Below, in pieces: positions 2,988-58,690 of a DNA stretch of 64,000 bases. Position 1 is the first letter of the stretch. Each line of letters begins with the position of its first letter. The position numbers and the translations under genes were made by a program. The notes beneath the pieces were generated by a model. That model did no database searches. It had not been told where the DNA came from and saw only the letters and a program-made list of their open reading frames with translations. The DNA is from Blasia pusilla (taxonomy: Eukaryota), in NCBI GenBank assembly GCA_050084515.1, contig CM114271.1:33232001-33296000 (forward strand). Direction: 5' to 3'.

Positions 2988-3103
2988 TGTGGTGCGCATA
3001 CACATCGCTACACAACATACATCGCTGTCACTGAACACACACGATCCCATGCTTACTCATGGCATCCAAACAACGAGACAAGAAGTACCAAAATATTTCC
3101 AAT
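2988..3103 (-). repeat. Repeat A2 (3' terminal repeat of element 1)
   Basis: Direct repeat of 3652-3779 (catacacat.gctacacaacatacatcg...gtaccaaaatat.tccaat). Confidence 0.9.
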
Positions 3104-3298
3104 AAAATAAGATCCAATCTCTCTCACAACACCATAATTCTCACGTGTGTGCACTCTCACATATCTCTCTCAATGTCAAACCAAAACCACTCTCCTAATG
3201 AGAGGCTTGGGTTACACTCACAAGGCAAGGGACCATAGCTTCCGCCGCCTCGTGCCAAAAGGTTCAACAAAGAGAGAATGAGCTCTTAAACACACACA

Positions 3299-3333
<35 letters not shown>

Positions 3334-3649
3334 TGAAGTATACCCCCCTCTCCCAAGCTCTCTTCATGTTAACCTATGCTCCCAAGTCACCTCCTTGGCT
3401 CTTGATCTGATGTAGGAGGTCAAGGGCCACTTACCAAAAAAAAGAAAATCGACCATATACTCAAAAGGGTACTTACCTAAAATAGTAAGTTCCTCAATAT
3501 GGCTCTAAATGAGCCGAAACGAAGGGGAAACTTGGTCTCTCAGATTTCCCAGGGCCTTAGCAGGTCATCCTCGACCTCCTAAGCCTGTCCTCTATTATTT
3601 GTGAAGGCGCTCTACTAGATCTCACTGATCTATCCTAAAGGATGTGACA
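3104..3649 (-). repeat. Repeat B2 of element 1, with (CA)n(CT)n expansion at ~3290-3331
   Basis: Direct repeat of 11622-12137. Confidence 0.9.
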
Positions 3650-3651
3650 AT

Positions 3652-3779
3652 TGTCGTGCCCATACACATGGCTACACAACATACATCGTTGTTACCGAAC
3701 ACACACACAAACATGCACGATCCCATGCTTACTCATGGCATCCAAACAACGAGACAAGAAGTACCAAAATATCTCCAAT
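3652..3779 (-). repeat. Repeat A1 of element 1
   Basis: Direct repeat of 2988-3103; joined to B2 by GTGACA-AT-TGTCGT. Confidence 0.9.
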
Positions 3780-3959
3780 CGTCCCCTTAGCTGGTGGTTA
3801 GATCCCTCTAACTCTAGATAGCCATCTATCCCTACCTACCATGATATACATCTCTCAAACGCTAAGAGCAAGAAGATCGGATGCTCATATAGCCCTATCG
3901 TTAGTCGCCTTCTTGTCATCCATGTCCCAGATGCAAGTCAAAATGTAGAACTACCTACG

Positions 3960-4110
3960 CTATGTACATCCGGGACACATCCATCGTCCCTCAAGAACCC
4001 TAGTGAGAGGTGGCGTCAGACATGCATATGCCATCCTCTCGAACACCCATCACATACTAGCATAGTGGCTGCACCACGAGCGAAATCACACAACATACAT
4101 CTCAAGCCTG
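3960..4110 (-). other. PHD finger at the integrase C-terminus (element 1)
   Basis: CMLC...MLVCDGCSRGWHM(frameshift)CLTPPLTRVLEGRWMCPGC, i.e. C4HC3 with the conserved W, then stop. Confidence 0.85.
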
Positions 4111-5100
4111 CAAGAACTACTGCTAAGCTCAGATCAAGTGTACCGTCAATGTTTGGAAGATGAAATGACGCATAGTTACGCACATGATCCTTCCAAACCA
4201 TACCACCACGTCCCTCCAATAAGAGAACACCGGATGGCAAAACCTCACGCACTTTCAAGATGATGCGCCCTGCAATCACATCCAAGATCGTGGGTGCCGT
4301 CTGTTGCAAATTGACATATTCTTTTGGATGAAACCTCCAATAGTAGGTCGATAATCACCTCCCCGAATAATTGCATACCTCAATATATCCCGATGTTGTG
4401 CAATCGCCAAGTTCTCAAACGCCATGGGCATCACTCTTCGAAACAACTCAACCCTCTGAGAACATGCTCGCATCCATACATCAGGGTCATCAAGGTTCAA
4501 CACCTCACCAACATCTCGACGAATGGCCGCACGTAAATCTGGCTCTCATCCATACAAAAGCAAGTACGGTGAGAAAGACGCTAAGGATGCATGTCTGCTA
4601 AATCTGTATCCCATTTCCAATCATGACAATTGGAGGGCCCAATCTCCTAGGTGACCTCTATGCAAGCCATACTTGCGTAATCCTCTCTTTATCATCTGCA
4701 CAACCCTCTCCGCTACTCCATCCGCCTCAAGATGATCTCGCAAAGTGGTGCGGTGGTCAATCAGTGCCTAATTACACAAGGCTTGAAACTCCCAGCGAAA
4801 CTCTGTACCCTGGTCTGTCAATATCTCAGCTGGTGTGCCATAATGACTCAACACTCGACCTAGGAAGGCATACGCTACTCCCTCACTCGCTTTGTCAAGC
4901 AATGCAACCAACTCTATCCACTTCAAGAATTGCTCGACCATCACCAACACATAACGACTATGGCGTTCCGTCAAAGGCAAAGATCTTGCAAAATCCAAAC
5001 TCCATCTATAACCTAAATCCATGGTCAGAAGTGGATGCAACTATGGAGTCGGAGCATTGAACAATGCTCGGACTTGATCACACACCATGCATCTCGCAAC
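4110..5100 (-). pseudogene. DDE integrase (degenerate; most of the HHCC region deleted compared with element 2)
   Basis: RWSLDFA...LVMVEQFLKWIELVAL...PAEILTDQGTEF; C-terminal 'LAIAQHRD..RY', 'ILKVREVLPSGVLLLEG'. Confidence 0.9.
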
Positions 5101-6480
5101 AAACTGCTGAGCATCCCAGGTCTATGTACCACTTGGAAGTGATACTCCCGCAATAAAAGATCCCACCTCGCAAGCTTCCCTATAAGCTTGTCGGACTCCA
5201 TCAACCACTTAAGTGGCTGATGATCAGTAATGATGGTAAAGGGATTGCCGAATAGATAACATCTGAAATGGGCGATAGCCCACACTACCGCCAAGCACTC
5301 ACCCTCATACGAGCTATACTTTGCCTCAATAGTGTTGTTCGAGCGACTAGCGTAAGCCATCATAAACTCTCTACCATCATCGTCATGCTGGGTGAGCACG
5401 ACTCCAAGCCCCAACATGCTCCAATCGGTATGCAACTCGAAAGGACGCCCCCTGATGGGTCTCCTCAATATGGGCGCGGACGTCAATATATCCTTGAGCA
5501 TTTGAAATGCTCTCTCTTGCTCATCCCCCTAGTGCCACTCCTAATCCACCTTGGTCAGCAAGGTCAGCGGCTTTGCAATCGAGCTAAAATCCTTCACGTA
5601 CCGTTGATACAAGTTTGCCAATCCTATGAATGTACGAACTCGACTCACATCCGTAGGGCGTGGAATACGCGAAATAGCCTCTGCCTTCATCTGCTGCACA
5701 CCAAGGCCCCTTGGATATATCGTATGACCCAGGTACTCAATCTGGTCGTAGAAGAACTTGCACGTGCCTGGATGTAGTTTCAGCCCATGTAACTTCAATC
5801 GTCGAAACACCTCCTCTAGATGTCGCTCATGCTCCTCAACCGTAGCACTAAAGACTACGATGTCATCAACATAACACATAGCAAAATCCAAACCTGCCAA
5901 GATCCTATCCATGACCCTCTAAAACTTAGCCGGGGCATTCTTTAACCCAAATGGTAAGAACCGCCAGTGGTACAAACAATCCTGCCTATGAGGATGGATG
6001 CCCCAAAATGCCGTCTTCTATCTGTCCTCCAATTTGATAGGCAATTGAAGGTATCCGACTCGCAAATCCAATGAACTGAAGACCTTTGCATGTCCAATCA
6101 CATCAAGGATCTCTTCAAGAACCCTACATATCGAATTTGTATGCCTATTGATAGGTCAATAATCTCCACACATCCGCCTATCTGTCCAGTTGCCATGCAC
6201 ATCCTTCTTGGCGGGCATGACAATGGCAGAGGCATACTATCCATACGACATCTCCACTAGTCCTACTCCAACCAAGTCTTGGCTCCTACTGTGAATCAGA
6301 GCCCTCTCCATGTCACTGTACCTATAGAATCGTCAGAAGATCGGTGTGTCACTTGACAACTCAATGCGGATCCTTGGACCCTTCAGCGATAGCCAAATCA
6401 TGCATACTAAATGCAAAAAAACTCATGTAACTCCTAAGAAACTGGTGTATCCAGCGCCGCTCTCCTCTTGTCAACTTAGG
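5025..6480 (-). pseudogene. Reverse transcriptase and RNase H (degenerate)
   Basis: RMCGDY, LDLRVGY, LPFGLKNAP, CYVDDIVVFS; RNase H FELHTDWS...YEGECLAVVWA...ITDHQPL. Confidence 0.95.
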
Positions 6481-6759
6481 GCCCATATCTGGCTCCCAAG
6501 TCTCCATCGTGATTACAGTAGGACTCTTCGGAGTGGGTGTCGGTGGTTGCTATGGTGCAACCTCATCTCAGACAACAAAACTCTCATCTCCACGTGTAGT
6601 ACCGGAACCACACTCGATGCTATGACTATCATCTCCTGGCATACCTGCAAAACATCCCAAGAAGTCCAAGGGTGTCTCTCTTGATCATCCCTAGTGTGTC
6701 GATCTCTTCGGATCTCGTCCCCTGCGACTTCCTCAACCGTCTCGGTCTAAGCTAAAAAT

Positions 6760-7580
6760 CCATGTCAAGCAGTTCAGGTCCATCGCTTGACCCAAGACAT
6801 GACGTCATGATGCCTCCGATAGTGACGATACTGCCGTCACTCATGTGGGGAATGCAATTGCTCGCTTACGCTCATTGGCCTTGGGCTCCACCAACCTCTA
6901 TACATTATCATCCCAAACCAAGCCAGATCCGGCCTCCTTGACTGCATAGGAAGCGGGAAAACTCACCAATGTGGGAAAGGCTACCCGTGACATGCCGATC
7001 TTGTTGATCATCGTACCTCATGTGGGACCAAGTTGGTCCACCAAAGACACGGGCGGTGTGCTCTAGAACCTACACTCACCGCATCTAAAAGCATTGTTGA
7101 GCCGATCCATGCACGCACTTGATGTGCACTCGTCACTACTCGTGATCTCGAATCGCCAAAGATCGGTACATTCTCCAGAATATATGCTGGAGGATTGATG
7201 CCCCTGCAAGTGTCACAAAATCCACATCATCTCCCAAAATAACATGGATCAAGTGTCAGCTAACCCGCTACCTTGGCCAGCATGCGATTGGCCCTTACAC
7301 GACCAACCAGCAATGACCAAATTTATGGCCCCTACCCGCTCCAAGTCCCGCGCCCCCAACAATGAAATATCCCGCGGTAGGGAACTGTGGTATCCATGGA
7401 CAGCGGACGTAGACAAAAAGTTGGGAAAACGGAGGCGTAACTGCGCCACATGGTGAAGTGAAGCGCGCCTTGCAACATCATCGATCTCCACATACAAGTA
7501 CTACTGCACGCGTACTTTTGCTTGCAAAACAACAGCTAACCCAATGCTGATCCCTCCAAAGAGATCCAACACCCAAATAC
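6760..7580 (-). pseudogene. Retrotransposon-borne DNMT3-like C5 cytosine methyltransferase domain (degenerate)
   Basis: Read directly from the minus strand, in order: motif I VLDLFGGI, II YLYVEID, IV NLVIAGWSCKGQSHAG (PC to SC), VI YILENVP, VIII SRAHRPCLWWTNL, IX ANERKRAIAFP, X RHVLGQAMD. Confidence 0.88.
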
Positions 7581-7919
7581 CCTCCTCTAGGTGCACCACA
7601 TAATGGGTGTGGTATCCAGGGCGTCATCATAGCACTCTCTACTACCTCTGATCCGTCACACTCTAGTGCAAAGGTCTCGCTCCACGCAGTTTGCACATGC
7701 TCAATGGCTAAGAGTCGAAGCTCCTTAGTTGAGCCCCAAAGTGGCACCTCTCCTCCACGGAGTGATGCGGCTACCATGATACTCCTCTCCATAGAAATGT
7801 TAATAACGGGAGTATCCTTTGCATGGACATGTCCCCCAATCAAGTCACTAGGCCAAGTGATGGCGCTGCTAAATGCTGCTAAGGTCGCTATCTCTCCTGG
7901 CTGTCGCTCAATCAATGCA

Positions 7920-8340
7920 TATGTAAATCGAACGGGTAATGATCTAAGGCACCCATCACCTAACTGCCATCATGGTCTGTAGGACGCTGACTCCTCCCAA
8001 TAATTCAGGGAAAACCCCATCGGGTACAACACTGCTCCACCAACCAAGACGTCGTAGGACTCTACATCGGTCACTATCGCCTTGGCTCGCACCATGGACT
8101 CATCTTTAGGATGTCTCGAGAGAATCCTCACCACGACCTCCTATCGGGATATACTATGTGGTACTTGCTCCACCCAAGGATGTATGGATCCGGAATGGAC
8201 AACGCTCCACATCAGCTCTCGTCAAGCCCAATCCTCTGAATGACGCTTTCCCCAACGTCAGGGGTTGCGCTCCTCAATCCAACAATACGAGTTGCGGACT
8301 AAAAGCTCTACCTCCTGGACTCACCAATTGGAAGACCTCT
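7920..8340 (-). pseudogene. Retropepsin-like aspartic protease remnant
   Basis: QLVLLD*GAQP (D-S-G-A with Ser codon mutated to TGA) at ~8261-8295; downstream 'YDVLVGGAVL' flap/GxD-like region. Confidence 0.7.
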
Positions 8341-9199
8341 CCCGAGTATCTAGCAACCCAACACCAAGAGAAGCCATGGCACGCTCTATCGCGGATCTAG
8401 CCGACATCTCCGCCATCCTAGCAGCCGTAGCCTACCATGAATCTGACGTGGACGGCCCGAGCATCCGCTCCAAGGGCAGGTCCATCACCTCCTCTACAAT
8501 CACCTCTGAACGTGATGCAAGAACTCCAACTCCACGCTCACATAGTGTAGCGGGAGCCAAAACACCTCGGCGGGCGTACCACCCAATGTCATAACATCGG
8601 AAGCAGAAAATAGCGGAGCACGGTACACCATCGTGGCCGCCCCCAACATCGTACTCAACACATGCTCCTCCGAGCATCAACAATAAGAGTCGTCGCATTC
8701 GTTCTCCCATGGCCCTCCATGTTTACATATCAATAACATCACCAACTCTCCGGGAACTCTGATCAAGACCCATTGATGAGGTTCTCATTGCCTCAAACAC
8801 CGTGAAAGACTGAGGAAGCCGGTCTGTTTCCTGCCTTCCCCTCGTTGTGGATCCAACTCTGCAGCTGCTCCACGCGTCACAATTGCGGCGGCCTCCATTT
8901 GGGCAACCCTGCATATCCAACCAAGATCCTCCATATCTCTAGCTGCTCCATATGATGTCAATGCCAGGGATCCGCCATCGGGTAATCTCAATGCCATAGG
9001 AGCAATCTGCTCAAGTAGCTGCTGTATCTGAGCAACCATCCCAACCTCACGCCCGACGTCTCCCTCGACTCGTCTAGGTGGTGGGACTCTACCTCCTCTA
9101 TGGGCAACTCCACCAACCTGTTGGGCAACTCCAGCTCCTTGTCCCCCAATGGGACCACATGGTGCACGATCTCTAGCCCACCCGGAACGACTACTCGCT

Positions 9200-10370
9200 T
9201 TGGTGCCCTCTCTGGCACCCTGAGTCCGGACGTAACTCAGGTTGTAAATTGAAACACCTGGCATGTGTGTGACCATATCTTTGACAATATAACACTGATA
9301 ACCTCTTGGTGCAGCACCATCTCCTCCTCCATGCAGAGGCACACGTCCATGACCCTAACGAGTGCAATTGCACTAATGATGGGCTCCACCACATGACCAA
9401 CAAGTAATGGTAGGCGACTGCTGGTGAGCTGCATATGAAGGCGTAGGTCTCTATGGAATGGCCTCTCGGTATCCTCCCTGCGCTCACGATACCACAGTCA
9501 ACCTATCTTGGAGTCCAAGTTGCTGCACTGGTGGTGCAGGCAATCGTGACTGCTCGCCTAGAACCCATGGTGGCTACGCTCTCCTCCGCCATGTTGCGCT
9601 CAATATTCTTGGCGGTCCTAAAAACATCTCTCAACGTAAGGGAGGTGCTCATAAGAAGCATCCCCTCCTGCACTTGTGTCCCCACGGTCCGGTTCAGCAT
9701 CGCATACCATGACTGGATAGCCTGAGCCTCTATCACCCCTAAGTGACGTTGATCAACCGACGCAAGCAAGTGTAAGCCTCACCCAAACTCTCACCCGGGC
9801 GCCTCTCAAATCGTGGATGCTCCCCCACATTTCCGTCCGTACCCCCTGGTAGCTCCCCTCATTTCAACAAAGAACTCAACCACAAGGTTGAACCTGGGAC
9901 AAACCCCACTAGCATAGTGCAACTGCTCCAACGCGATTGACCCCTCCTAAAACATCACTAGTGGAAGAGGAAGTAGCCTCTCCTGACTCCTCCTCCTCAT
10001 ATGGGAATGGCTCTGTCCATGACACATAGTGTGGATTATAGTAGAGTCACCATGCTTCAATCTCCTGGGCTTATATGTGGGAGAAATCATGGTAATTATC
10101 CATGGGCACCCCCTCTAAATGATGGAACATACTGTTCCATGCTGTAAACGGGTTGAACTCTGTAGAGTTCCTAGCCCGTGGTGAGTCACACCAACTCCTA
10201 AACTCCGCAATGAAGTCGTGTAGCTCTATAGTGCCTACAACACCCGAAAACCTATGCGGTTCTCTACCCCGATCGTCCATCCCGTACGCCCAACTGGTAT
10301 GACCACTCAATGTGTACGGTGGATCACTAATACACTCCTCTATATGCTCCCCCTTGTCTAAAGACGACAT
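9200..10370 (-). pseudogene. gag remnant with CCHC zinc knuckle
   Basis: Gag-like 'FSGVVGTIELHDFIAEFRSWC'; frameshifted knuckle C..CQRYGHTHARC at ~9255-9300. Confidence 0.7.
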
Positions 10371-10955
10371 AGAAGGAGATCAAGGTCGTCCCTCACGTCA
10401 AGACCCTCAAAACCTCGCACCACTCTAGGTAAACCCTACAAACCTCCTTGATGTGCGGTGCAGGTCGAGCGGTCCATTGCGGCACTGGCAACACGGAACG
10501 GCTAAAAACGGCATAGCACTCGAGAATGGGGTGCGGCACTAGGCGGCATACCCTCCTAAATCAACAATTCACATGCTCTGCTCCTTAGTGAAGAATCGGC
10601 TTCACAATCAAGATGATGCGGTACAGCCACGAGCGGCATGGCGTGGAAATTGGCGGCTACGGGCGTCACGATACGGTACTCGATCGTCGTCGAGCGGCTA
10701 CCAATCACAACATAGCAGCATGAAATGAAAACTCAAAACCATAACTCGAGGTCATCTGCCATCACTAGTTGATGACGAAACTGCGATGATGGTGGCGGCC
10801 AAAACAAAGTACGTGGTGGCGGTGCAAGTCAGAGGATCAACGGTCGTCGTGGAAGACCCTCCACTCTGTTATGGCGGCAATGAAAACCAAGGGTGGACAA
10901 TGGCCGAATGCGGCTCTAAGCAGCGCAAGACAGTGGCGGCGGCCGACGGTGGGCG

Positions 10956-11055
10956 GTTGACGGTGACGGTTGACCATCGATGGTGATGGCAGACCATCGA
11001 TGGTGATGGTTGACCATTGACGGTGATGGTTGACCGTTGACGGTGATGGCCAACG
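10956..11055. repeat. 20-bp tandem repeat (~5 copies) in the element 1 leader
   Basis: Unit approx. GTTGACGGTGATGGTTGACC. Confidence 0.8.
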
Positions 11056-11621
11056 CCAATGCGGCGCTGGTTTAGGGTTTGAACAATTTAACCCTAGAAA
11101 TCGCCTAGCAATGGAAAATTTGCAAGATTGACCATAAATTTTTGTCACAACTCCAAATTACGCACCGTTTGTTGTACAGTGTGCACAACTTTAGGATCTA
11201 CAACAATATCAAAAACTATTTTGAATCAAATATTTCAGTAAAAACTGACAGGGACTGTCGTAAAGCCCAATATCTCTTTCTCCTACACAAAATTCGGCGG
11301 CTCTTCCGTGCTGATTTCTCTCAACGAAAATGTAAAACCTATGAGAACACAAATCAGCAAGCTACATGGTGCTCTTGAGAGCACGAGCATGGAGCAATCT
11401 GCGCCCATACTCAATTCCTATCGAAAATTGGGCAGCACTTCCGCATGCCACTCTCCTGTACAAAAAAATTAGCAAAGCAAAATAGCAAACTCGCACGGCT
11501 CTTGCTCCGGTGAGCACTACCATAAGCCATGAAGTGGGGAAAACAGTCCTCCAACTTGCACCAAACATCGAGCAACGACCAAGCTCCCCTATGAAGCTCT
11601 CTCACTCACTCATTCTATCTT

Positions 11622-12137
11622 TGTAAAATAAGATTGAATCTCTCTCACAACACCATAATTCTCACATGTGTGCACTCTTATATATCCCTCTCAATGTCAA
11701 ACCAAAACCACTCTCCTATTAAGAAGGTTGGGTTACACTCACAAGGCAAGGGACCATAGCTTCCGCCGCCTCGTGCCAAAAGGTTCAACAAAGAGAGAAT
11801 GAGCTCTCAAGCTCTCTCTCCTTGAAGTATTACCCCCCTCTCCCAAGCTCTCTCCATGGTAACCTATGCTCCCAAGTCACCTCCTTGGCTCTTGACCTGA
11901 TGTAGAGGTCAAAGGCCACTTACCAAAAAAAGAAAATCGAATATATACTCAAAATGGTAATTACCTAAAATATTAAGTTACTCAATATGGCTCTAAATGA
12001 GCCGAAACGAAGGGGAAACGTGGTCTCTCAGATTTCCTGAGGCCTCAACAGGTCATCCTTGACCTCCTAAGCCTATCCTCCACTACTCGCAAAGGCGCTC
12101 TACTAGATCTCATCGATTTATCCTAAAAGACGTGACA
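11622..12137 (-). repeat. Repeat B1 (5' terminal repeat of element 1)
   Basis: High by-eye identity to 3104-3649; in sense starts TGTCACG and ends CTTATTTTACA. Confidence 0.9.
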
Positions 12138-47815: not shown

Positions 47816-48080
47816 GGACAAGATGAAAAATGAAAAGACCTCATTTTCATTGAAGGTTTAATGGGATGGGTTCACAAAAAAGAGTTAACACTTTTTGAGT
47901 TTTTGGTCACAACTTCATTTTTCTTGACACTTTGCAAGAGAGCTAAATGTACCTTGGGGATCATGTGTACCAAAGTTCAGCTCTAGATGAAATACTTGGA
48001 CAAGATGAAAATTTTAGCTCAAGATGAGATACTTGGACAAGATGAAAAATGAACAGACCCTATTTTTATTGAAAGTTTAA
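47816..48080. repeat. ~180-bp tandem repeat, left part (continues at 58179)
   Basis: caagatgaaaaatgaaaagacc...ttgaaggtttaa...cttggggatcatgtgtaccaaa units. Confidence 0.85.
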
Positions 48081-49536
48081 TGTGTGAGTTAGGATAGGGT
48101 ACTAGCGTCTAGATTCCTTAATAGCACAGGGTGGACGAGGCCCAATATGGCGTTGTAGATTGATTAGTTTTAGGCCGGGTGTGCCATTTTTACTCTTATT
48201 TTTACATGAGAAAGAAGCAAGGGGGCAGAGGGGAATTCTTTGTTTACAAGTAGACAAGCAAGTTGCCTTGACAGGGAGGCCTGGAGACGCTGGTTAGCGT
48301 GTATGTGGGTTTTCAGTTTTGTTCAAAGACCATGTGCGGAAGCGATGTCCGTTTTTCCATAGGTTTCGCTGACATAGATTACTGAGGGAGAAGAGCCAAG
48401 TGTGACCACATAAAATTATGAATGATTGACAAGAAAATTGCTTATTCATATCGTCTAGAGTTCCATGGTATAGAGAGGGAGCCGGCGCTAGGCGCATACA
48501 TATGTGTACCCAAAACGTGCAAGAGGGTTGAAGGAATGAGTTCAAAATAGAGCAAGGTCGATGCATTTGGAGGAGCGTGAAGACGAACTTGTACGGAGCC
48601 GTTCACATGCATATAAGGGCGGGGAGACCCTACATAGGGCCACATACCTTAAGCAGGGAAGAAAAAGAGCTGCACGCGTATAAGGTGTGCGTAGAGCGTG
48701 GTTTGAAGGAGAGGCCTGACCAAGTTCGAAGGCGGGAGCGCCTTGGAGGCAAAACGCGGGATATTGTGAGAGCGGGAACAACCAAGGAGGCTCCATAGGG
48801 AGCTGTGGTGTTTGCACATGTGGAAATGAGTACTAGAGCCATAGAGGGAGACTTGAATGTATAGGGCACGTGTAGTAAATCATTACTACGTGTCCGTAAG
48901 GTTACAAAGGTACATGGGTACACGTGCATCCATATGGGATGGCCAGTTCCCGTGTTGTAAGGGTCCTGCATTGGAAGGAGAAAACAAGAGTTGCATAGTG
49001 TAGTACGCCGCGTTCGAGAACATGGTTCGGGAGTTGTTTTGGAATTGTCGGAATATTACTGGTATCATTGATATTTTCTTGGACATTATTTTTACGTGTC
49101 GGTCGTAGCCGGGAGATTTGTAGCTTTCCAATTAATTTTCTTGTTGGTTAAAATCCGAAAATTCTTTTTCTATTTTTCTTATTTCCAGGGCTGAATTTTT
49201 TTCTCTGCTAATTTCCGACCGAACTTTGTGAAGCTGGCCAAAAACCGGTTTTTCCTAACTCGGTCGGAATTTTTTTGTTCACACACACCTTATATTCTCC
49301 ACATCCCTGCAATGCTCAAAAACTTGATTCCTGATATCAAATTCTTCCCCTGAAGTAGACATGCAAATCTTCTAATACAATAAAAAAATTTATCCTTGGC
49401 AGGAGTTGAACCTGACAGAACTCCCACCAGTTGGGAGCCAAGGATCCTACCCCTCTTGAATACTTGGAGCCATGAGGCTCCAAGTATTCAAGAAGGGTCC
49501 TACTTCCTAAAACCTAAATGATCAAAGTCTTCTAAT

Positions 49537-51738
49537 CTAGAGGGTTTCAATAACTTCAACTTCCTCATTCGGGGAGATGTATCTATCAGGATTTGCAAAC
49601 AAGTACCTAAAATGAGCAGAATTCTTCCACAATATCACAGACTCAGACAACATCTCTTCATAATCAGAGGAAGGTCCTTCTAAGGCAATCCTCAAGATCG
49701 CATTTAAATACTTTGTGGTCAACCTATTACGAGATTTAATCTTAATCATGTTTTGAATGGAAAAGGCTCTCTTACATATGGCAGTACTAACACATTGGAC
49801 TCTAGCTATATTTGCCAAAATCAAAAATTAGAAAACTTACATTGCAATGAGGGACTCCAACTTACCATCGCCCACAAGTCTCTGAAGTTGCGATCCTTCC
49901 ACTCAGTGGTAGCCATCAATTTGAAAGATTGAAACTCTTGCTTAACAATCGAAGAATTAATGATAGCCGGTAGCAACACACCCCGTAATGGCAATTGATT
50001 TCCAAAAAACCACACAAATCATCTAAATCTTTACACCCCCAACTATTCAATCCCACTTGCCGAGAAGGCATGTGCAAAGGATTGAGTATTCTCATAGATC
50101 CAATCAAGTTATTATCTCAAAATCACTCTTGTAAAGATGTACACACACTTTCAGCAAACCTTTTCTGAAAGAATAATGCAGCCACTAAGTCCCTTCCGGT
50201 CCGATCTCGAGACATAGCAATGCTAAGAAACTTGTTTCCCCTCATCTCGGATTGTAAACGACGAAGATAACCACCAGGTGGCCCAAAATCAGGAAGTATA
50301 TGGTAACATGTATCTTCAGAGAAGGTGGAGGCATTCAAGTCATGAGTTTCCATGACAAAATTCATGGTAATCCTAGCTATCTCTGAATTCACAATGCTCC
50401 CTATAGTACTAACATCCACAAACTTGTACTGAAATATCTTACTTAGATTTGCAAGCATGGAAAGTATGTAAGCCAAAAAGTATAGTTGATAGATCATTTG
50501 GAATGATCTCAACCTGTTAATTTCAGCATTCCCATTGTCCTTTGAAGGGGAAATATCTCTAAAGTATGTCAATACTGATTCTAGAGAATCAGACAAGATG
50601 GTCACAACTTGCCTATGGGATAACCATCTAATCTTGTGGTATCTCTTCATAACTCGTTGGGGGTCATTGAATTTTTCCTGCAACAATGCTAGAATTGTTT
50701 TCCTCTTTGACGACCTTCTAAAGTAACCAGCTACTGCATTGAGAATCGAATCAACTTCAGAGGATATTGACTTGCAATCAGGAGCTTTTGCAGCAAACAA
50801 AGCCGCCAAATTTGTTCTATGGGCTATACAATGAACTAAAAGAATATAGGGATTTACCTTCTCCTTCATTTGGGAGGCCACCCTTGTCTGGCTACCAACC
50901 ATTGTAGAAGCTCCATCTGAACCAAATGCTACCATTTTGGAGAATTCTAACCCTCCATCTTTGATTAGTTGCAACGAACCTTCAGTAATAGCATTGGAAC
51001 ATTTTAATTCGCAACGAAGTAGTCCTAGAAAACAACATTTTGCCTGGCCCTCTTCAATGAAGGTGGCAAACACAACCAAATGCCCTGTTACAGATATGTC
51101 AGTTGACTCATCGATCATAATTCCAAAGAAAGGAGAGGCTTGAACTCTCACAAGAGTTCTTCTAAACAGAACTTGGCTAATGAAGTAACACATCTCACAA
51201 CAACTCTTTTCATCTTGATATAAGTATCTGGTAATAGGGGCATTCATTGATAACATTAACTTACAAAGGCTGGGAAATTTCAAAAATGGCATAGCCTCCT
51301 TTACAAGGAAGTATGCGCACTTAAACAATGTCAACAGAGCGATTTCATAAGTGCGGTTGGTGGTGGCAATGGCCTTGGCCATTACCTTCTTACCCCCATG
51401 TGCAGCCCATGCAAGCTTCATGTGCTCATTAGACTTCGCATGATCAGTGAAGGCTGAAACCTTACAGTTTATTGATCCATCTCTAGCAAACACACTCTTC
51501 CCTTTCCCCTTCTTACAAACTTTACAAAATATTCTACCAAGGGTTGAATCCCACTCAATCCAATCATACCATACATCCTTCCATGCTACACAAACTTTCC
51601 AGGTACATCCGCACTGCTTCCTCACGGAGGCGGCTCATCTCTATCATCAGATGAGCCAAACAATGCGATAATGTCAAGCTCGTCATTGATTAGTTCCTTA
51701 CCTAGCAAGGAAATCATTGTCTTTTGTCTCTTGGCCAT
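49537..51738 (-). pseudogene. hAT transposase, ZNF862/DUF4371-like (few lesions)
   Basis: FCKVC...H zinc motif; FFGIMIDESTDIS; FGSDGASTMVG; VHCIAHRTNLA; IRWLS; dimerization domain STAICKRAFSIQNMIK..RNRL. Candidate terminus CAGGGCTGAATTTTTT at 49186; other end near 52880 unclear. Confidence 0.9.
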
Positions 51739-52975
51739 GTGTACTACTGGGCACTAGGCAACTATATGGACTACAATCTGAGAATGGAAGAAGGGCTACC
51801 CCACGGGAATAAGCTAGAACACAGGACCTGCAACGAGCTTGAGAACTTCTCGAGGAGAAGTTGCGGCGGCTGCACGGCTTGGAAAGGCCCTTGTTAATGT
51901 AGGCAATCTACGAAGCACCAGAGCAAACCGATGTAGACTTGCTAAGGAAAAAAAATAAGAAATACATCCCGGCTGCCTGAAAGAACACAGTCCGAGAACA
52001 TTGGAGGGCAGCAGCCTTTCCAAGAATCACGGACTTGCCACACATTGAGCGGCCCCCACCTCAATCCCTAGCAGCAAAGCTACCAAGCCCACCGAAAATG
52101 ACCAAGCCAAGGTTGCCAAGCAGCAATGCGAGTAGCAAGCTTGCAGGATTGGGTAGCACAATAGCAGCAAGATGGAGCGCTAGGAGCGGAGCTACAAAAG
52201 ATTTTGCAAAAGGAGAACTAGAGGTGAGAGACAAGCACTGGAGCAACAACGCGAATGATGTCTGTGAAGGGCAGAAACGTGAGCACCGAGCGGCGAGCTT
52301 GCATTATCCAGCAGTAGTAGCAACAATACGAAGCACTGGAATAGCAATGCAAAACTTGGGGAGAGACGGCCACTCGGGCAAGGAGAATGGCAGAAATACG
52401 AGCGGCGAGAGCAGCGAGGCAGAGCAGCGAGGCGGAGCAACGAGGCACAACAGTGAGACAAAGGATTGGGAGCGGAGACTCCACAAGTGGAGAACATGCA
52501 AATGAGGCCCCTAAGGAGTATGCCACTTCTACTTCCAACCATCCGATTCAGATCGGACGGCTGTGCTTAGTGTGCCCTAAATGAGAGGACGGTCTAGATC
52601 CAACCGTCTCCCCCTTAGCGAATCCTGAGCGTCACTCCATCACTCATACTTTTCCGACAGCCAGCACTCTAGGCGGCCAAAAATTGTCTGCCGATAGTAG
52701 CACTCCAGCCAATAACCAGTTTCCCTACCCAGATAGTGCCACTTTCCGACGTCTTCGTGGCAAGAAACAGTCAAATTCTGGCGCCTGGTCGGCTCGCCTG
52801 ACAGTTACCGGTATCTACCCAATTTCACCAAGAACTGCTGCTGGGAAGTTCTTTTGCTGGTCAAAATTTTCAAAAAATTGCCGGCCGGGGCTACTCATTA
52901 CCCCAGATCCCTCCGAACATTGTTCAAGAAGTGGGGAAGGGCTCCATAGGGAGCCGTACAAGGTGGGGGCCGTCA

Positions 52976-53165
52976 ACGGTTGATGATCAGTGATAAGTGT
53001 GAAAGGGTTGCCGAATAAATAACACCTGAAATGTGCCATGACCCACACTGCAGCCAAGCACTCTTCCTCATAAGAAATGTACTTCACCTCTGGAATGTTG
53101 TTTGATCAGCTCGCGTAAGCCACAACGAACTCCCTCTCCTCGTCATCCTTCTAAGTAAGCACTGA
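52976..53165 (-). pseudogene. Inverted RNase H fragment of the Gypsy family
   Basis: SYEEECLAAVWVMAHFRCYLFGNPFTLITDHQPL; antisense homolog of ~55419-55610. Confidence 0.88.
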
Positions 53166-53689
53166 ACGTCAAGGAAGAGGAGCGCAAGTGCCTGAGTTGG
53201 GGTACGGTTGGAGAGAGGATAGGTCATTAGCGCGCAATTGGGGAAGCGGGGGTAGCCGAGACACGAAAGTAGGGGCATGTATTTTGGTAAGGCAGGAAGA
53301 AGAGAGAGAGTCAGGCTGATGGCATAGGGAGTTGTGTCGCTCCCACGTGGAAGGTGAAGGGCGTCCATAGGGACGCGTGAAAGGAGTGTGAAGGAATAGC
53401 AAGATGTTCGTGGAATGGAATCCAGGCTCCATAGGGAGCCCTGTAGAGCCATTATGGCTACGAGATATGTGTCCTAGTACGGTGGTACCTCATAGGTACG
53501 TGAAAAGGAGGTGCGCACGTTAAGGCGCATAAGGATGAGAGAGGGCGCCTGTAAAGCCCATGAGCAGGGTTAAGAGTTTGGGGCTAAGCGGGGTTGGACG
53601 GTGGGAAGACAAGCATGCTCCAAGGTTGGTATAAGGGCGTGGTACGAGAAGAGCAGCCAGGTGGAGTGACTCAATAAATATGGAAATGA

Positions 53690-53987
53690 ACGTAGGACAT
53701 ATATATATTTTTATATCCCAATAACATTAAAAAACACGTTATCATTGGAGCATGAGATCACAAAAACACACTAGTTGTTATTTATGACTTTGTATTACTA
53801 GGCAAGTGAAAGAAGTACGACTAGTCTTTACGAAAGGGTATTGGTAACTACTTTAGAAATAAGTACATGACTAGGTGAGTTGTGCAACCTTAAATTTTAG
53901 GACTAAACCATTTTAGTCATACTTTGAGTCATTCTTTCGGCAAGTCATTTAAAGCCTAGTCATAAAATCCACACAATTCTTCTAGTG
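53690..53987. mobile_element. CACTA terminal fragment
   Basis: Ends CACACAATTCTTCTAGTG; agtcat subterminal motifs as in the large CACTA. Confidence 0.75.
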
Positions 53988-54305
53988 ATGGATAGTTAAC
54001 CTTGGTATGGTTGAGCAGAGACGGATGCGAGTGTCATCCATGTGTCACGTCCACGAGTCGGAGCATTGCCTATAGGGTTTTTATAGGCATTGGCTGGGGG
54101 AGGGACGAGGAGAGATAGGCACCCATGGACTTCTTGGGACGTGGTTTGAGCAGAGAGTGCGAAGGCAGCAAGAGCAACACACGTTCATTTTTTGGATGTG
54201 GAGCATGGTGTAGGAGGTCAGAGTGGAGTGGTTGTTGTGGAGGTGGCTAGGACTGCTACATAGCAACCAAAGCCGGAGGTTACGTCCTCTCTAAGTGAGG
54301 TCACG

Positions 54306-57300
54306 ATGGAGACTTGGGAGCCCGTGATAGGTCTCAAGTTGACAAGAGGAGAGCGACGGCAGGCTCATAGATTTTTGAGAGGGCATGTCAGTTGTTTTGC
54401 CTTTAGTATGAGAGACTTGGGTATACTGAAGGGTCCTCGGATACGGAATGAGTTGGCTAGTGATACGCCGATATGTCGTCGACCCTACAGGTACTTTGAT
54501 ATGGAGCGAGCCTTGATTCAGAACAAGATTCAAGACTTGTTGGAGGCACGACTTGTGGAGTTATCGCATGGGGAATATCCAACTGCCACAGTCATGCCAA
54601 AAAAGAAGGATATATATGGCAATTGGACGGATAGGCGGATGTGTGGAGATTACCGTCCTATCAATCGACAGACGAGTTCAGATCAGTACGCCATGCCTAC
54701 TCCTGAGGAGATCTTTGATGCAGTAGGGCATGCAAAGATCTTATGTACTTTGGATCTCCGTTCTGGCTATCATTAGCTTCCTATAAGGTTGGATGACAAG
54801 GAGAAGAAAACATTATAGGGGATAGATCGGTTTGGGAGAGATTGTTTGTATCAATGGCAGTTCTTACCATTTGGGTTGAAGAATGCACGTGCGGAGTTTC
54901 AGAGAGTGATTGATAGCATTCTGGCTAGCTTGGATTTTGTATGATGTTACATAAATGATATTCTTATCTTTAGTTCCACGGTTGAGGAGCATGAGCGACA
55001 CCTGGAGGAGGTGTTTTAGCAATTGCAGTAGCATGGACTGAAGTTACATCCTGGCAAGTGCAGATTCTTTTAGGAGCACATTGAGCACTTAGGGCACACC
55101 ATGTACTCAAGCTGGTTAGGTGTTCAAAAGACAAAGATAAAGGCTATTGCGCAAATTCCACGCCCTACAGATATGAGTCAAGTTTGAACATTTCTGGGAT
55201 TGGAAAACTTCTATCAACGGTATGTCAAGGATTTTAGTGCGATCGTGAAGTCTTTGACCTTGCTAATGAGACTTTATTAGGTTTGGCTATGGGGAGATGA
55301 TCAGGAGCGAGCATTTCAGGAGCTCAAGGATAACTTGCCTTCCTCACCCATTTTACAGAGACCGATTAGGGGTCGCCCATTCTAGCTCATACAGATTGGA
55401 GCATGTTGGGTCTAGGAGCAGTGCTTACTCAGAGGGATGATGAGGAGAGGGAGTTGGTTGTGGCTTACGCAAGCCGATCGAAGAACATTGCAGAGGCGAA
55501 GTAAAACTCCTACAAGGGAGAGTGCTTAGCTGAGTGTGGGTTGTGGCACACTTCAAGTGCTATCTATTTGGCAACCCTTTCACACTTATCACTAATCATC
55601 AGCCGTTGAAGTGCTTGATGGAGTCCGACAAGCTTACGGGAAAGCTTGCCAGGTGGGCTCTATTACTACAAGAGTATGAGTTTGAGGTGGTTCAAAGGCC
55701 AGGTCGGCTGAACTAGGATGCGGATGGGTTGAGTCATAACCCATGTCTGAGTCACAAAGACAATACAGGAGCTCGATGGCACAGAGAGAGTGATGAGGAG
55801 ATGGTGCCCAGTTGGCATGCATCTGCCTATCTTTTTTGGTTGACTATGGCAGGTCAGCCCCAGGTGGTGACTCTAGTGGTGGGGCCAGATGATGAGTTTT
55901 TGGATCCGGAGGTTAGTGAGGAGGCGACAGGTAGTCATGATATCCATGACGACGAGGAGGTTGTGAAGTTCTTGCATATTGGTGTCATAGTAAGCACAGT
56001 GAGTGTTAGGGAGCAGGATCGGATTCTAGGAGAGCAACTTCATCCTTCCCATCGAGCACGTGTAGTGCGACATGAGGAGTTGGGGAATTTTGGAGTAAAG
56101 CGTACTTACAACTTACTTCAGGTTTAGTATTGGTGGGGCGGCATGCATACTGGGGTACAAAAGTTTGTAGCCAGATGTATGGTATGTGATCGAGTGCGAG
56201 CATCCTTCAATGTTGCCACTTCGGAATTACATCCTTTTCCGATTATGGATTTAGATTATCGGTGGAGTTTAGACTTTGCGAGACCTTTGACATTGACAGG
56301 GCGTCATCACAGATACATGTTGATCATGGTGGAGCATATCTCCAAGTGGATAGAGTTGGTAGCACTACAGGACGAGGCGAGCAAGGGAAAATCTTATGCA
56401 TTTCTAGATCATGTGCTTAGTCACTTTGGTGCACCAATGGAGATGTTGATCGACGAGTGCGTCACGATATTGATCGAGTGCGTGCACCGAATTCAAAATA
56501 CGTCTGAGTTTTAGGCCTTGTGTGATTATGCGTTGATAGATCACTGCATTACGTCTAGAGATCATCTTGAGGCGGATGGGTTGGCAGAGAGAGTAGTACA
56601 GACGGTGAAGAGAGGATTGCGCAAGTATGGCTTGCAGCAAGGATAGTTGAGGAGTGGGACCTACAGTTGCCATGGTTGGCTATGGGTTATCGCTTCAGTC
56701 GACAGGCATCCTTGGGGTCATTTTCATTGTACTTTTTGCTCTTTGGGAGAGAGCCAAATTTACCTGCAGCTATTTGACGTGACATAGCGGAGGTGGTAGA
56801 TCTTGATGATCCAGATGTGTGGGTACAAGCATGTTCTTAGAGGGTGGAGATTTTTTGTAGAGTTATGCCCATGGCCTTTGAGAAATTAGCTATTGCTCAG
56901 CATAGGGATACATTGAGGTACGCAACCATTCGTGGAGGAGGTTATCGTCCAGGGATTAGGAGGTTTTATCTTAGAGATTACGTCTATTTATAGCATGTGG
57001 CATCCATGATGCTAGGTGTTACTGTAGGGGGCACGATTCTACGTGTGCACGAGGTGTTATCGATCGGGGTCCTCATGTTGGAGGGACGGGATGGTATGGT
57101 TTGGAAGGATCATGTGCGCAACTGTGCACATGTCACCTTCCAGACGTGGACGGTGAGTGGATCTGAACTTCGTAGTGGTACCTACGGGCTTGAGGTGTAT
57201 GTTGTGTGGATCTACGAGGGATGTAGCCACCATGTTGGTATGTGATGGTCGTTCTCGAGGGTGGCATATATCATGTCTGACCGACCCCCCCTCTTGATTT

Positions 57301-57340: not shown

Positions 57341-58178
57341 GGTAGTAGATCATGTTAGAGAGATGTGATATCTGCTATCTGGAGTTGGGGGGATACAACT
57401 ACTAGTTAGGGGGGCGGTTTTGTGATCTCGATATATATGTGTGAGTTGATTTTTTGTACTTGTGTGGATCTATCCTTATGTTGGGGAAGATCAATGTTAT
57501 GTGGTGTGGATATGACTAGCAATATGTATTGTGTAGCGATGTGTATGCGCATGACAGTTGTCACATGTGAGTAGCCGTTATATGTTTGCTGGCCCTCTAT
57601 CGAGGCGACGGCATAGAGGGCCAGCAAACTATCGTGAGTATAACTTCATCGTGAGCTGTCAGATGGGATTGAGTATAGTTCCATTGTGTTAGAAACGTTG
57701 TTTCAGACAAGCTTCCTTTCAAGGTCTTTCATAGCCAAGTGACTTGTTCAGCAGGTTCCTTGCTCTTGGTAACTTGTGCACGCTGGTTACTAGGAGGGTT
57801 GTTAACTTTAGGGGAGGAGCCTTTTGGCTCTTCCCACACCTATATATAGGAGAGAGACGTCTTTCCCAAGCCATCTTTCTCATGTTGGGCCATTGGAGTA
57901 CCATTCTTGCTCGTGTGTGTGAGTTAGGACTGGGTGCTAGCGTCTGGATTCCTTGATAGCACAGGCTGGACGAGGCTCAATATGTTGATGTAGATTGAGG
58001 AGTTTTAGGCCAAGTGTATCGTTTTAATACTTATTTTTGTTTTTTGATCTCGATATATATGTGTGAGTTTATTTTTTGTACTTGTGTGGATCTACCCGTA
58101 TGTTGGGGAAGATCCGTGTTGTGTGGTGTGGATGTGACCAGCGATATGTATTGTGTAGCGATGTGTATGCGCATGACA

Positions 58179-58690
58179 TGTGTAAAAAAGTTCAGCTGTA
58201 GATGAATAATTTTTGAGCTTTAGGTCACAAATCCATTTTTCTTGAAACTTTGGAAAAGAGCTACACGTACCTTGGGGATCATGTGTACCAAAGTTTAGCT
58301 CAAGTTTACGTACTTGAACTTGATGGAAAATGAAAAGACCTTCTTTTCATTGAAGGTTTAATGGTGTAGGTCAAAAACTGAGTTAACAATTGTTGAGCTT
58401 TTGGTTACAACTCCATTTTTCTTGAAACTTTTCAAGAGATTTACATATACCTTGGGGATCATGTGTGCCAAATTTCAGCTCAAGATGAGATACTTGGACA
58501 AGATGGGAAATGAAAAGATCTTCTTTTCATTGAAGGTTTAAGGGTGTTGGTTCAAAAAATAAGTTAATAATTTTTGAGCTTTTGGTCACAACTCCATTTT
58601 TTTTGAAACTTTGCAAGAGAGCTGTATCCAAGAATTTCTTGTATGAGATAGTTGGAAAAGATGAAAAATGAAAAGATCCAATTTTCATAG
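58179..58690. repeat. ~180-bp tandem repeat, right part (~2.5 copies)
   Basis: ttgagctttt(a)ggtcacaa recurs at 58213, 58393 and 58574. Confidence 0.88.

What the first reader, a model, noticed from the sequence alone, without database searches (positions are those of the whole stretch)
57417..58178. Independent repeat of the A-B-A terminus in a divergent second copy
Seen: A1 (57417-57556, 140 bp), GT, B2 (57559-58038), A2 (58039-58178, 140 bp). A 5' B remnant (48081-48206) ends CTTATTTTTACA and is not followed by A, just as B1 of element 1 ends CTTATTTTACA. B and most of A are unalignable by eye between the two elements; only the termini are shared (TGTCAC... and ...TGTGTAGCGATGTGTATGCGCA.GACA). 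The same architecture with different sequence suggests a family trait rather than a one-off rearrangement.
Basis: partly seen in the sequence, partly recalled or inferred. Interest (0 to 1): 0.85.

Follow-up and report, generated by a model that had tools for sequence, protein, structure and literature searches.

The report
Gypsy retrotransposon with permuted terminal repeats
The A-B-A block is the normal 3' end of an old, broken Ty3/gypsy retrotransposon from a bryophyte and green-alga lineage whose inserted copies always carry their terminal repeats in a split order (B ... A-B-A), a layout already noted once in an alga but never explained.

Summary
A1 (57417-57556), GT, B2 (57559-58038) and A2 (58039-58178) are real, and a 5' B remnant (48085-48203) lies 9.8 kb upstream. 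The whole block is one insertion flanked by TGTG in a 180-bp tandem repeat.

It is a degenerate Ty3/gypsy element (RT-RH-integrase-PHD) of the "Gypsy-DNMT3" lineage. Its closest named proteins are from liverworts.

The layout B...A-NN-B-A is a family trait. It occurs in element 1 of the window, in 10 independent insertions of a related metagenomic family, and in parts in six further metagenomic loci. The 2018 description of the Klebsormidium relative says it has "the structure of repeats of a DIRS retrotransposon".

Three anatomical points emerged here:
- A polypurine tract sits directly before A1.
- The sequence directly after the 5' B is complementary to a site about 170 nt before the end of B, as in Tf1-type self-priming. 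For reverse transcription the LTR is therefore A-NN-B.
- The inserted ends lie at a conserved palindrome (...ACA NN TGTCA...) inside that LTR and carry 4-bp target duplications.

An inserted copy is thus a circular permutation of a two-LTR cDNA. How that arises is inferred, not shown. This is a new member of a known but unexplained kind.

The parts
48081..48084 (+). Left target-site duplication TGTG of element 2. It can also be read as the TGTG inside B (57916-57919).
   Evidence: Sequence. The same four bases stand at 58179-58182. The flanking repeat is in phase across the insertion.
48085..48203 (+). 5' B remnant of element 2. It is the last ~120 nt of B (part of R-U5). The first ~360 nt, including the promoter and the start of R, are missing.
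   Evidence: 83.7% identity to 57916-58038. The break lies in a TGTG microhomology.
48204..48217 (+). Putative self-primer binding site ACATGAGAAAGAAG, directly after the 5' B.
   Evidence: Complementary, with 1 mismatch in 14, to 57872-57885 inside B. 0 of 300 shuffles reach this length.
48218..54110 (+). Mosaic 5' interior of element 2. No gag, protease or DNMT remains. It holds foreign pieces: a hAT-like frame at 50123-51634 (-) and an inverted RNase H fragment at 52974-53165.
   Evidence: Pfam, tblastx and tblastn.
54300..57290 (+). Broken pol of element 2: RT, RNase H, integrase (H2C2 + rve) and a C-terminal PHD finger, with stops and frameshifts.
   Evidence: Pfam RVT_1 8.7e-23, RT_RNaseH 1.3e-11, Integrase_H2C2 1.6e-9, rve 2.2e-4, PHD 5.5e-4 (the last two below the curated cut-offs). 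tblastn against relatives.
57404..57416 (+). Polypurine tract AGTTAGGGGGGCG, directly upstream of A1.
   Evidence: Sequence. Homologous tracts stand directly before A1 in element 1 and in 17 of 17 long-form metagenomic loci.
57417..57556 (+). A1. It is the first part of the LTR as reverse transcription makes it (5' part of U3). It ends ...GCGCATGACA.
57557..57558 (+). Two-base spacer GT in the middle of the palindrome TGACA-GT-TGTCA.
   Evidence: Sequence. A 2-nt spacer is present in every relative examined (AT, GC, AC, TC, GT).
57559..58038 (+). B2. It starts TGTCAC. It carries a TATA-like box at 57841-57848 and the putative start of R at 57872-57885. R-U5 runs to 58038.
58039..58178 (+). A2, the terminal copy of A. 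Its start abuts the end of B exactly as A1 abuts the polypurine tract. Its end is the right end of the insertion.
58179..58182 (+). Right target-site duplication TGTG.
   Evidence: Sequence.
2988..12137 (-). Element 1, with the same layout. B1 12137-11625, primer binding site 11624-11609, protease/DNMT/RT/RNase H/integrase/PHD remnants 8551-3963, polypurine tract 3790-3780, A1 3779-3652, AT, B2 3649-3104, A2 3103-2988. Flanks are CTTG (12141-12138) and CTTA (2987-2984).

Best explanation
57417-58178 is the ordinary 3' terminus of a dead Ty3/gypsy retrotransposon of the streptophyte 'Gypsy-DNMT3' lineage (pol order protease-DNMT-RT-RNase H-integrase-PHD). Inserted copies of this lineage have the order B - primer binding site - interior - polypurine tract - A - NN - B - A.

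Shown:
- Both repeat pairs are renewed at every transposition.
- The polypurine tract abuts A1.
- The sequence that abuts the 5' B is complementary to a site about 170 nt before the end of B, just downstream of a TATA-like box. This is the Tf1-type self-priming arrangement.
- For reverse transcription the LTR is therefore A-NN-B (U3 = A-NN plus the first part of B; R-U5 = the last ~170 nt of B).
- The ends of the inserted DNA lie at the conserved palindrome ...ACA NN TGTCA... inside that LTR and are flanked by 4-bp target duplications. The B|A2 joint is an exact U5-end to U3-start joint.
- An inserted copy therefore equals a two-LTR cDNA whose ends were joined and which was reopened at the palindrome of its 5' LTR.

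Inferred:
- After normal reverse transcription the two cDNA ends are joined, either as a two-LTR circle or by an end-to-end template switch.
- The integrase cuts 3' of CA on both strands of one palindrome. This leaves CA-OH ends with 2-nt overhangs, like processed retroviral ends.
- The integrase then inserts the opened molecule.

The 5' B of element 2 was later shortened by a deletion between TGTG microhomologies.
For: Family identity. RT-RNase H-integrase order and Pfam hits. Best named homologues are from Calypogeia fissa (71%) and Marchantia polymorpha (69%), then Klebsormidium, Chara and Closterium; many carry PF00145 and PF00628. Element 1 keeps DNMT remnants 56-65% identical to a Marchantia protein that carries PF00145.

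Recurrence of the layout. It is present in element 1. 17 metagenomic loci, representing 10 distinct insertions, end A-NN-B-A, and the 5' B is never next to an A in 18 loci. L054 has A (202 bp, 100% identical copies)-GC-TGTCAC...B-A. In L048 the 5' B starts TGTCATG straight after flank, while its 3' B is preceded by GCACGACA-GC. The junction motif lies 3' of the integrase in L001, L002, L043 and L078. The published note on KnitGypsy-Dnmt3 is in PMC5890265 (Fig. 4c legend).

Integrase-type insertion. 4-bp duplications flank B-start to last A-end in 4 of 4 long forms with both ends (TCTC, AAGG, AATG, CATA). Element 2 has TGTG/TGTG and element 1 CTTG/CTTA. No tyrosine recombinase was found in the sense frames.

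Renewal at each cycle. A1 and A2 show no position-specific difference across 10 insertions and share copy-specific variants. Identity of A1/A2 is close to that of B/B within most copies.

Self-priming. The complementary pair has a different sequence in element 1, element 2 and the metagenomic family but sits at the same place, 163-179 nt from the end of B. 0 of 300 shuffles reach it in e1, e2, L017, L016 and L074.

Joint made anew each cycle. B2|A2 is exact in e1 and e2. In the metagenomic family it carries the last base of the polypurine tract, and in L009/L012 a 21-nt filler built from end-derived snippets that include the tract's CGAG. PPT|A1 does not vary in length in 17 of 17 loci.
Against: No circle, linear cDNA, transcript start or poly(A) site was observed. 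All copies seen are dead, with many stops.

A two-LTR circle holds two identical palindromes. The other permutation (B-A-NN-B-interior-A) should then also occur, but it is seen at 0 of 18 5' ends.

About 13 distinct insertions of the metagenomic family end with a single A ('short form', B-interior-A). These could be deletions between A1 and A2, or primary products, which would point to a different pathway.

The complementarity is degraded or found at another place in 5 of 10 metagenomic copies tested (L039, L010, L065, L009, L034).

Target duplications of short forms are perfect in only 3 of 6. Element 1's duplication matches in 3 of 4 bases.

In element 2, A1/A2 (92.9%) are clearly more alike than B'/B2 (83.7%), which simple co-renewal does not predict.
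Confidence: 0.6

Rival explanations
1. The same family trait arises entirely during reverse transcription, with no joined-end or circular intermediate. Extra template switches or alternative primers at the A|B palindrome give a linear cDNA that already runs from B-start to A-end, and the integrase processes it in the usual way.
For: Only one permutation is seen (0 of 18 5' ends carry the other), which a directional copying scheme explains more easily than random opening of a circle. Short forms (B-interior-A, about 13 insertions) are what a primer placed at the start of B2 would give without a switch from A1 to A2. DIRS-order elements with the same repeat order are reported to amplify through linear single-stranded cDNA (title and abstract of PMC7192593, seen in the listing).
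Against: The end of A is not purine-rich and the start of B is not tRNA-like, so no primer site is evident at the palindrome. A good polypurine tract and a self-primer site sit at the outer borders of A-NN-B instead. The L009/L012 filler holding polypurine-tract bases at B|A2 fits joined cDNA ends better than copying of an inherited joint.
Confidence: 0.25
2. The true LTR is B-A (TGTCA...TGACA). Every 5' LTR has lost its A, and A1 is a stray duplicated U5.
For: B-A has TG...CA ends with 5-bp inverted repeats and is bounded by the target duplication at the 3' side.
Against: The 5' A is absent in both window elements and in 0 of 18 metagenomic 5' ends. The primer-binding complement follows B directly, and the polypurine tract precedes A1, not B2. 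Independent identical deletions in every copy are not credible.
Confidence: 0.03
3. A one-off local rearrangement (tandem LTR, unequal crossover or nested solo LTR) in this genome.
For: Element 2 is old and its 5' half is a mosaic of foreign pieces.
Against: The same order and the same junction motifs recur in a second, diverged element (pol 71-74% identical), in 10 independent insertions elsewhere, and in parts in six further loci. A1 and A2 also evolve in concert.
Confidence: 0.02
4. A DIRS/Ngaro/PAT-type element that inserts by a tyrosine recombinase.
For: The repeat order is the split-direct-repeat order A1...B1-A2-B2 that defines PAT and Ngaro elements (PMC4157794, passages).
Against: No tyrosine recombinase domain in the sense frames of either element, whereas a DDE integrase with an H2C2 finger is present. 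4-bp target duplications and TG...CA ends are present. That DIRS-order elements make no target duplication is my recollection, not a call.
Confidence: 0.02

Closest known systems
KnitGypsy-Dnmt3 of Klebsormidium nitens ('Gypsy-DNMT3' of streptophytes), de Mendoza et al. 2018, PMC5890265
   Same: A Ty3/gypsy pol with a Dnmt3-type cytosine methyltransferase. The Fig. [quoted passage not shown] Klebsormidium proteins are among the homologues of element 1.
   Different: The window elements are dead copies whose nearest named proteins are from liverworts, not an alga. Element 2 has lost the DNMT region. In the main text I read (section 9 and passages; supplements closed) the paper gives no target duplications, primer sites, junction palindrome or mechanism.
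Split direct repeats of PAT and Ngaro elements (DIRS order)
   Same: The repeat order is A1 - coding - B1 - A2 - B2. With the letters swapped, this is B - coding - A1 - B2 - A2 here.
   Different: Those elements encode a tyrosine recombinase. These encode a DDE integrase, have TG...CA ends and make 4-bp target duplications.
Tf1/sushi and plant Tcn1 Ty3/gypsy elements (self-priming)
   Same: The sequence next to the LTR is complementary to the start of the transcript instead of to a tRNA. Self-priming is predicted for Tcn1 elements of mosses and club mosses (PMC6317226, passages).
   Different: As far as I recall, those elements have ordinary identical LTRs at both ends. Kinship of this lineage with Tf1/Tcn1 was not tested here.
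Retroviral two-LTR circle junction
   Same: B2|A2 is an exact U5-end to U3-start joint. The A|NN|B site is a ...CA NN TG... palindrome of the kind formed at retroviral circle junctions (recalled knowledge).
   Different: In retroviruses the palindrome is formed by joining the ends and circles are dead-end products. Here the palindrome is inside the LTR and marks the inserted ends, while the joined ends are carried inside the provirus.

Membership tests
Ty3/gypsy (Metaviridae) LTR retrotransposon | pol domain order RT - RNase H - integrase, with a DDE (rve) core and an H2C2 finger | tested here: met
   Pfam hits in that order in both elements. tblastn against full-length relatives.
Ty3/gypsy (Metaviridae) LTR retrotransposon | Short target-site duplication and TG...CA ends | tested here: met
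   TGTG/TGTG for e2 and CTTG/CTTA for e1. 4 of 4 long-form relatives have perfect 4-bp duplications. Ends are TGTCA...(G/A)ACA.
Ty3/gypsy (Metaviridae) LTR retrotransposon | The same complete LTR at both ends of the inserted copy | tested here: not met
   The 5' end is B only and the 3' end is A-NN-B-A, in both window elements and in all relatives with ends.
Gypsy-DNMT3 lineage (KnitGypsy-Dnmt3 and relatives) | C5 cytosine methyltransferase domain inside pol | tested here: inconclusive
   Element 1: PF00145 at E 8.5e-4, 19.3 bits, below the cut-off of 22, but 56-65% identical to the DNMT part of a Marchantia protein that carries PF00145. Element 2: that region is missing.
Gypsy-DNMT3 lineage (KnitGypsy-Dnmt3 and relatives) | DIRS-like (split) order of the terminal repeats | tested here: met
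.
DIRS order (PAT/Ngaro type) | Tyrosine recombinase instead of a DDE integrase | tested here: not met
   No Phage_integrase hit in the three sense frames of either element at E up to 0.01, whereas rve and H2C2 are present.
DIRS order (PAT/Ngaro type) | Split direct repeats A1...B1-A2-B2 | tested here: met
   Definition.
Self-priming (Tf1-type) retrotransposons | The sequence next to the LTR is complementary to the first bases of the transcript | tested here: met
   A 14-21 nt complement sits at a conserved distance from the end of B and 24-31 nt after a TATA-like box in e2. 0 of 300 shuffles reach it in e1, e2 and 3 relatives. The sequences differ between lineages. The transcript start itself was not observed.
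Self-priming (Tf1-type) retrotransposons | RNase H cut of the folded 5' end, which yields the primer | not testable with these tools
   Needs biochemistry or cDNA end mapping in an active relative.

The most novel reading that the evidence does not exclude
This gypsy lineage inserts not the linear product of reverse transcription but an end-joined (circular or concatemeric) cDNA. A DDE integrase opens it at a palindromic att site built into the LTR. The provirus is therefore a circular permutation of the cDNA. This would be a working example of the long-abandoned 'circle junction' route of retroviral integration, and a mechanistic bridge between LTR and DIRS-type elements.
Probability: 0.35. 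Interest if true: 0.8.

Novelty: new member of a known kind. Interest (0 to 1): 0.55.

Why it matters
LTR finders and TE classifiers assume two identical terminal LTRs. Elements of this lineage will be truncated, split or called rearranged, so the layout needs to be recognised as regular.

The anatomy worked out here turns a one-line remark in the literature into a testable question: how can a DDE integrase produce a DIRS-like provirus? The relevant features are the polypurine tract before A, the self-primer site after B, the palindromic ends inside the LTR, the 4-bp duplications and the exact U5|U3 joint carried inside the element.

If the joined-end route holds, it would show that integration from an LTR-LTR-joined intermediate exists in nature. 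It would also suggest how split repeats of tyrosine-recombinase elements and ordinary LTRs are related.

I found no paper that explains the layout. Of the 8 papers one search listed I opened only PMC4157794 (passages); one search found only the 2018 paper. Supplements of that paper were closed and may hold more.

Tried and rejected
- The whole genome of the window is not held, so no survey of the host genome was possible.
- Earlier notes of this scan: nothing by place, sequence or words.
- Viral contig collection: one distant relative only (29% identity, L081), not used.
- Public runs X1-X4, all coded 'organism A', held only 8-13% of the sampled words. Laid as short contigs, they show that the family is highly repeated. 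Many contigs continue after ...TGTCAC with element-1-type B (loose ends at 57564: 23 contigs in X2, 17 in X4). Contigs of about 100-300 nt cannot show whole layouts. The A1-to-A2 'skips' of 623-624 nt are ambiguous between single-A copies and double placement. The near-absence of cover over 57610-57771 is not a finding.
- tRNA-type primer sites (TGG...) next to B or A: none seen by eye.
- The spacer NN as copy-specific or flank-derived: rejected. It is shared within subfamilies (GC or AC in most) and unrelated to each copy's own target duplication.
- Intact relatives: the two metagenomic copies whose frames I listed (L017, L010) are full of stops.
- Non-family metagenomic loci mostly lack enough flank. 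22 were self-compared. Only L054 shows a full A-B-A, and L048 shows both B copies.

Full report
**1. The observation**

A1 (57417-57556) and A2 (58039-58178) are 92.9% identical over 140 bp (E 1e-55). They are separated by GT (57557-57558) and B2 (57559-58038). A stretch at 48081-48203 matches the last 123 bp of B2 at 83.7% (E 6e-33). It ends CTTATTTTT and is followed by ACATGAG..., not by A.

Element 1 lies on the minus strand and has the same order:
- B1 12137-11625, full length, starting TGTCAC
- polypurine tract 3790-3780
- A1 3779-3652, then the spacer AT
- B2 3649-3104
- A2 3103-2988

B1/B2 are 86% identical and A1/A2 85%. The 22-mer at the end of A occurs four times in the window against none expected by chance.

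With a proper alignment, A is homologous between the two elements over its whole length (z about 9-10). B is barely alignable (z 2.4-3.5).

**2. One insertion, later damaged**

Element 2 sits in a short array of a 180-bp tandem repeat. The repeat continues in phase across the insertion, and TGTG stands at 48081-48084 and 58179-58182. The 5' remnant therefore belongs to the same insertion.

B2 reads ...GTGTGTG|TGAGTTAGG at 57913-57928. The left junction reads TGTG|TGAGTTAGG. I infer that a deletion between the TGTG of the target duplication and the TGTG run inside B removed the first ~360 nt of the 5' B.

The 6 kb after the remnant is a mosaic. It holds no gag, protease or DNMT. It does hold an uninterrupted 503-codon hAT-like frame on the other strand and an inverted RNase H fragment.

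**3. What kind of element**

Both elements carry RT, RNase H and a DDE integrase with an H2C2 finger, in that order, ending in a PHD finger. The two pols are 71-74% identical at the DNA level, from e1 6683 / e2 54111 to the 3' end.

The RT-RNase H of element 1 was read with X at six stops. Its best named relatives are from Calypogeia fissa (71%) and Marchantia polymorpha (69%), then Klebsormidium, Chara and Closterium. Many relatives carry PF00145 (C5 DNA methylase) and PF00628 (PHD).

Element 1 retains protease and DNMT remnants that are 56-65% identical to the Marchantia protein. Pfam DNMT is weak (E 8.5e-4, below the cut-off).

This is the lineage described as KnitGypsy-Dnmt3 in Klebsormidium nitens. 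[quoted passage not shown] They draw the DIRS order as A-coding-B-A-B (PMC5890265, section 9 and passages). A 2026 preprint refers to 'streptophytes (Gypsy-DNMT3)' without discussing the repeats (passages).

**4. The layout is a family trait**

An alignment of the integrase-PHD part of four relatives retrieved 80 metagenomic loci. 48 of them share A and B sequences with locus L017. In this family:
- 17 loci, representing 10 distinct insertions by their flanks, end polypurine tract - A (113 bp) - NN - B (340 bp) - A.
- 4 more loci show A-NN-B followed by a contig end or an inverted piece of B.
- 18 loci include a 5' B about 8.4 kb upstream of the PHD end. In none of them is an A adjacent to it.
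- About 13 distinct insertions end with a single A followed by unrelated DNA. Six of these have both ends and read B-interior-A.

Other lineages show parts of the layout:
- L054 (39% integrase identity) has A (202 bp, copies 100% identical) - GC - TGTCAC...B (585 bp) - A.
- In L048, which looks GC-rich in the stretches printed (composition not computed), the 5' B starts TGTCATG directly after flank, and its 3' B is preceded by ...GCACGACA GC.
- The junction motif lies 3' of the integrase in L001, L002, L043 and L078.

The remaining non-family loci lack enough flank to judge.

In the coded runs the family is highly repeated. Many contigs continue after ...ACA NN TGTCAC with element-1-type B.

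**5. Anatomy that bears on mechanism**

(a) Inserted ends. In the four long-form insertions with both ends, perfect 4-bp duplications (TCTC, AAGG, AATG, CATA) flank B-start to last A-end. Short forms have 3 of 6 perfect, 2 of 6 with 3 of 4 bases matching, and 1 of 6 with 2 of 4. Element 2 has TGTG/TGTG and element 1 CTTG/CTTA. The ends are TGTCA... and ...(G/A)ACA. No tyrosine recombinase is present. Insertion is therefore of the integrase type.

(b) Both repeat pairs are renewed at each cycle. Across 10 insertions there is no position inside A at which the A1 copies differ consistently from the A2 copies. Copy-specific variants are shared by the A1 and A2 of one element. Within-copy identities of A and of B are similar in most copies.

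(c) A G-rich polypurine tract abuts A1. It is recognisably homologous between the metagenomic family and the window elements.

(d) The bases directly after the 5' B are complementary to a site inside B at a constant distance from its end:
- e1: ACAAAGATAGAATGAG (11624-11609) against CTCATTCTCTCTTTGT (11803-11788).
- e2: ACATGAGAAAGAAG (48204-48217) against CATCTTTCTCATGT (57872-57885). This site lies 24-31 nt after TATATATA (57841-57848).
- Metagenomic family: CTCAAAGAACTATGTT against AACATAGTTCTTTGAG.

No shuffle out of 300 reaches the observed length in e1, e2, L017, L016 or L074. The place is the same in 7 of 10 metagenomic copies. In 5 of the 10 the match is degraded and not significant. 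The sequences differ between lineages while the pairing is kept.

This is the arrangement of Tf1-type self-priming, which has been predicted for Tcn1 elements of mosses (PMC6317226, passages).

It follows that for reverse transcription the LTR is A-NN-B. U3 begins at A, R begins about 170 nt before the end of B, and U5 ends at the end of B.

(e) B2|A2 joins the last base before the primer site to the first base after the polypurine tract. The joint is exact in e1 and e2. In most metagenomic copies it carries the tract's last G. In L009/L012 it carries a 21-nt filler of end-derived snippets, including the tract's CGAG. PPT|A1 does not vary in length in 17 of 17 loci.

(f) The A|NN|B site is a palindrome (TGACA NN TGTCA). 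Its spacer is always 2 nt and is shared within subfamilies.

**6. Reading**

Formally, an inserted copy is a two-LTR cDNA, [A-NN-B]-interior-[A-NN-B], whose ends were joined (B|A2) and which was reopened at the palindrome of its 5' LTR. This gives B-interior-A-NN-B-A.

A cut 3' of each CA in the palindrome would leave recessed CA-OH ends with 2-nt overhangs, which is the form of processed retroviral ends. I therefore propose that the integrase opens an end-joined cDNA at this built-in att site and inserts it.

The anatomy in (a)-(f) is shown. The joining and the cut are inferred.

Against the simplest circle version: the second palindrome should give the other permutation, which is not seen (0 of 18). 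The many short forms may be either A1/A2 deletions or primary products. A purely reverse-transcriptional route to a linear B...A cDNA remains a serious rival. I put the descriptive core at about 0.9 and the joined-end step at about 0.4.

**7. Verdict**

The thing itself is an old, dead transposon, and the layout has been noted in print for an algal relative. For novelty it is therefore a new member of a known kind. No mechanism is given in the main text of the 2018 paper that I read, and my searches turned up no other paper on it; of the 8 papers one search listed I opened only one. The supplements of the 2018 paper were closed and may hold more. The anatomy found here makes the question testable.

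Noticed in passing
window 50123-51634 (-): An uninterrupted 503-codon frame with zf-C17orf113 (E 5.9e-13) and a weak DUF4371 hit, i.e. a hAT-transposase-like protein. It lies inside the mosaic 5' part of element 2 on the opposite strand. It is the only long open frame in the element.
   Followed up: partly
window 52974-53165 (-): An inverted fragment of a related RNase H domain (66-72% identical to relatives). It is evidence for a nested or rearranged second copy inside element 2.
   Followed up: no
window 12407-13379 (-): An RT-RNase H fragment of another, more distant Ty3/gypsy element (41-44% identical to the Marchantia protein). It lies about 270 bp outside the 5' end of element 1.
   Followed up: no
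window about 23629-28000: A very long array with a 30-bp period (CCTCCACCTCC... units, about 100 copies), possibly a repetitive coding region.
   Followed up: no
window 47805-48080 and 58183-58690: A short array (about 4 units) of a 180-bp tandem repeat that element 2 has split.
   Followed up: partly
L008, L010, L016, L059, L065, L069 and others: 'Short form' copies B-interior-A with a single A, mostly with 4-bp target duplications. They are about as frequent as the long form in the metagenomic family. It is not settled whether they are deletions between A1 and A2 or primary products.
   Followed up: partly
L030, L031, L045: A-NN-B followed directly by an inverted copy of the first 180 nt of B. 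The same structure is seen in three loci.
   Followed up: no
window 57417-58178 against 48081-48203: In element 2, A1/A2 are 92.9% identical but B'/B2 only 83.7%. In element 1 and most relatives the two values are close. Possible causes are gene conversion between the nearby A copies or faster decay of B.
   Followed up: no
window 57584-57629: A 46-nt inverted repeat (hairpin) inside the first part of B2 of element 2. This part of B (57610-57771) drew almost no contigs from the coded runs.
   Followed up: no
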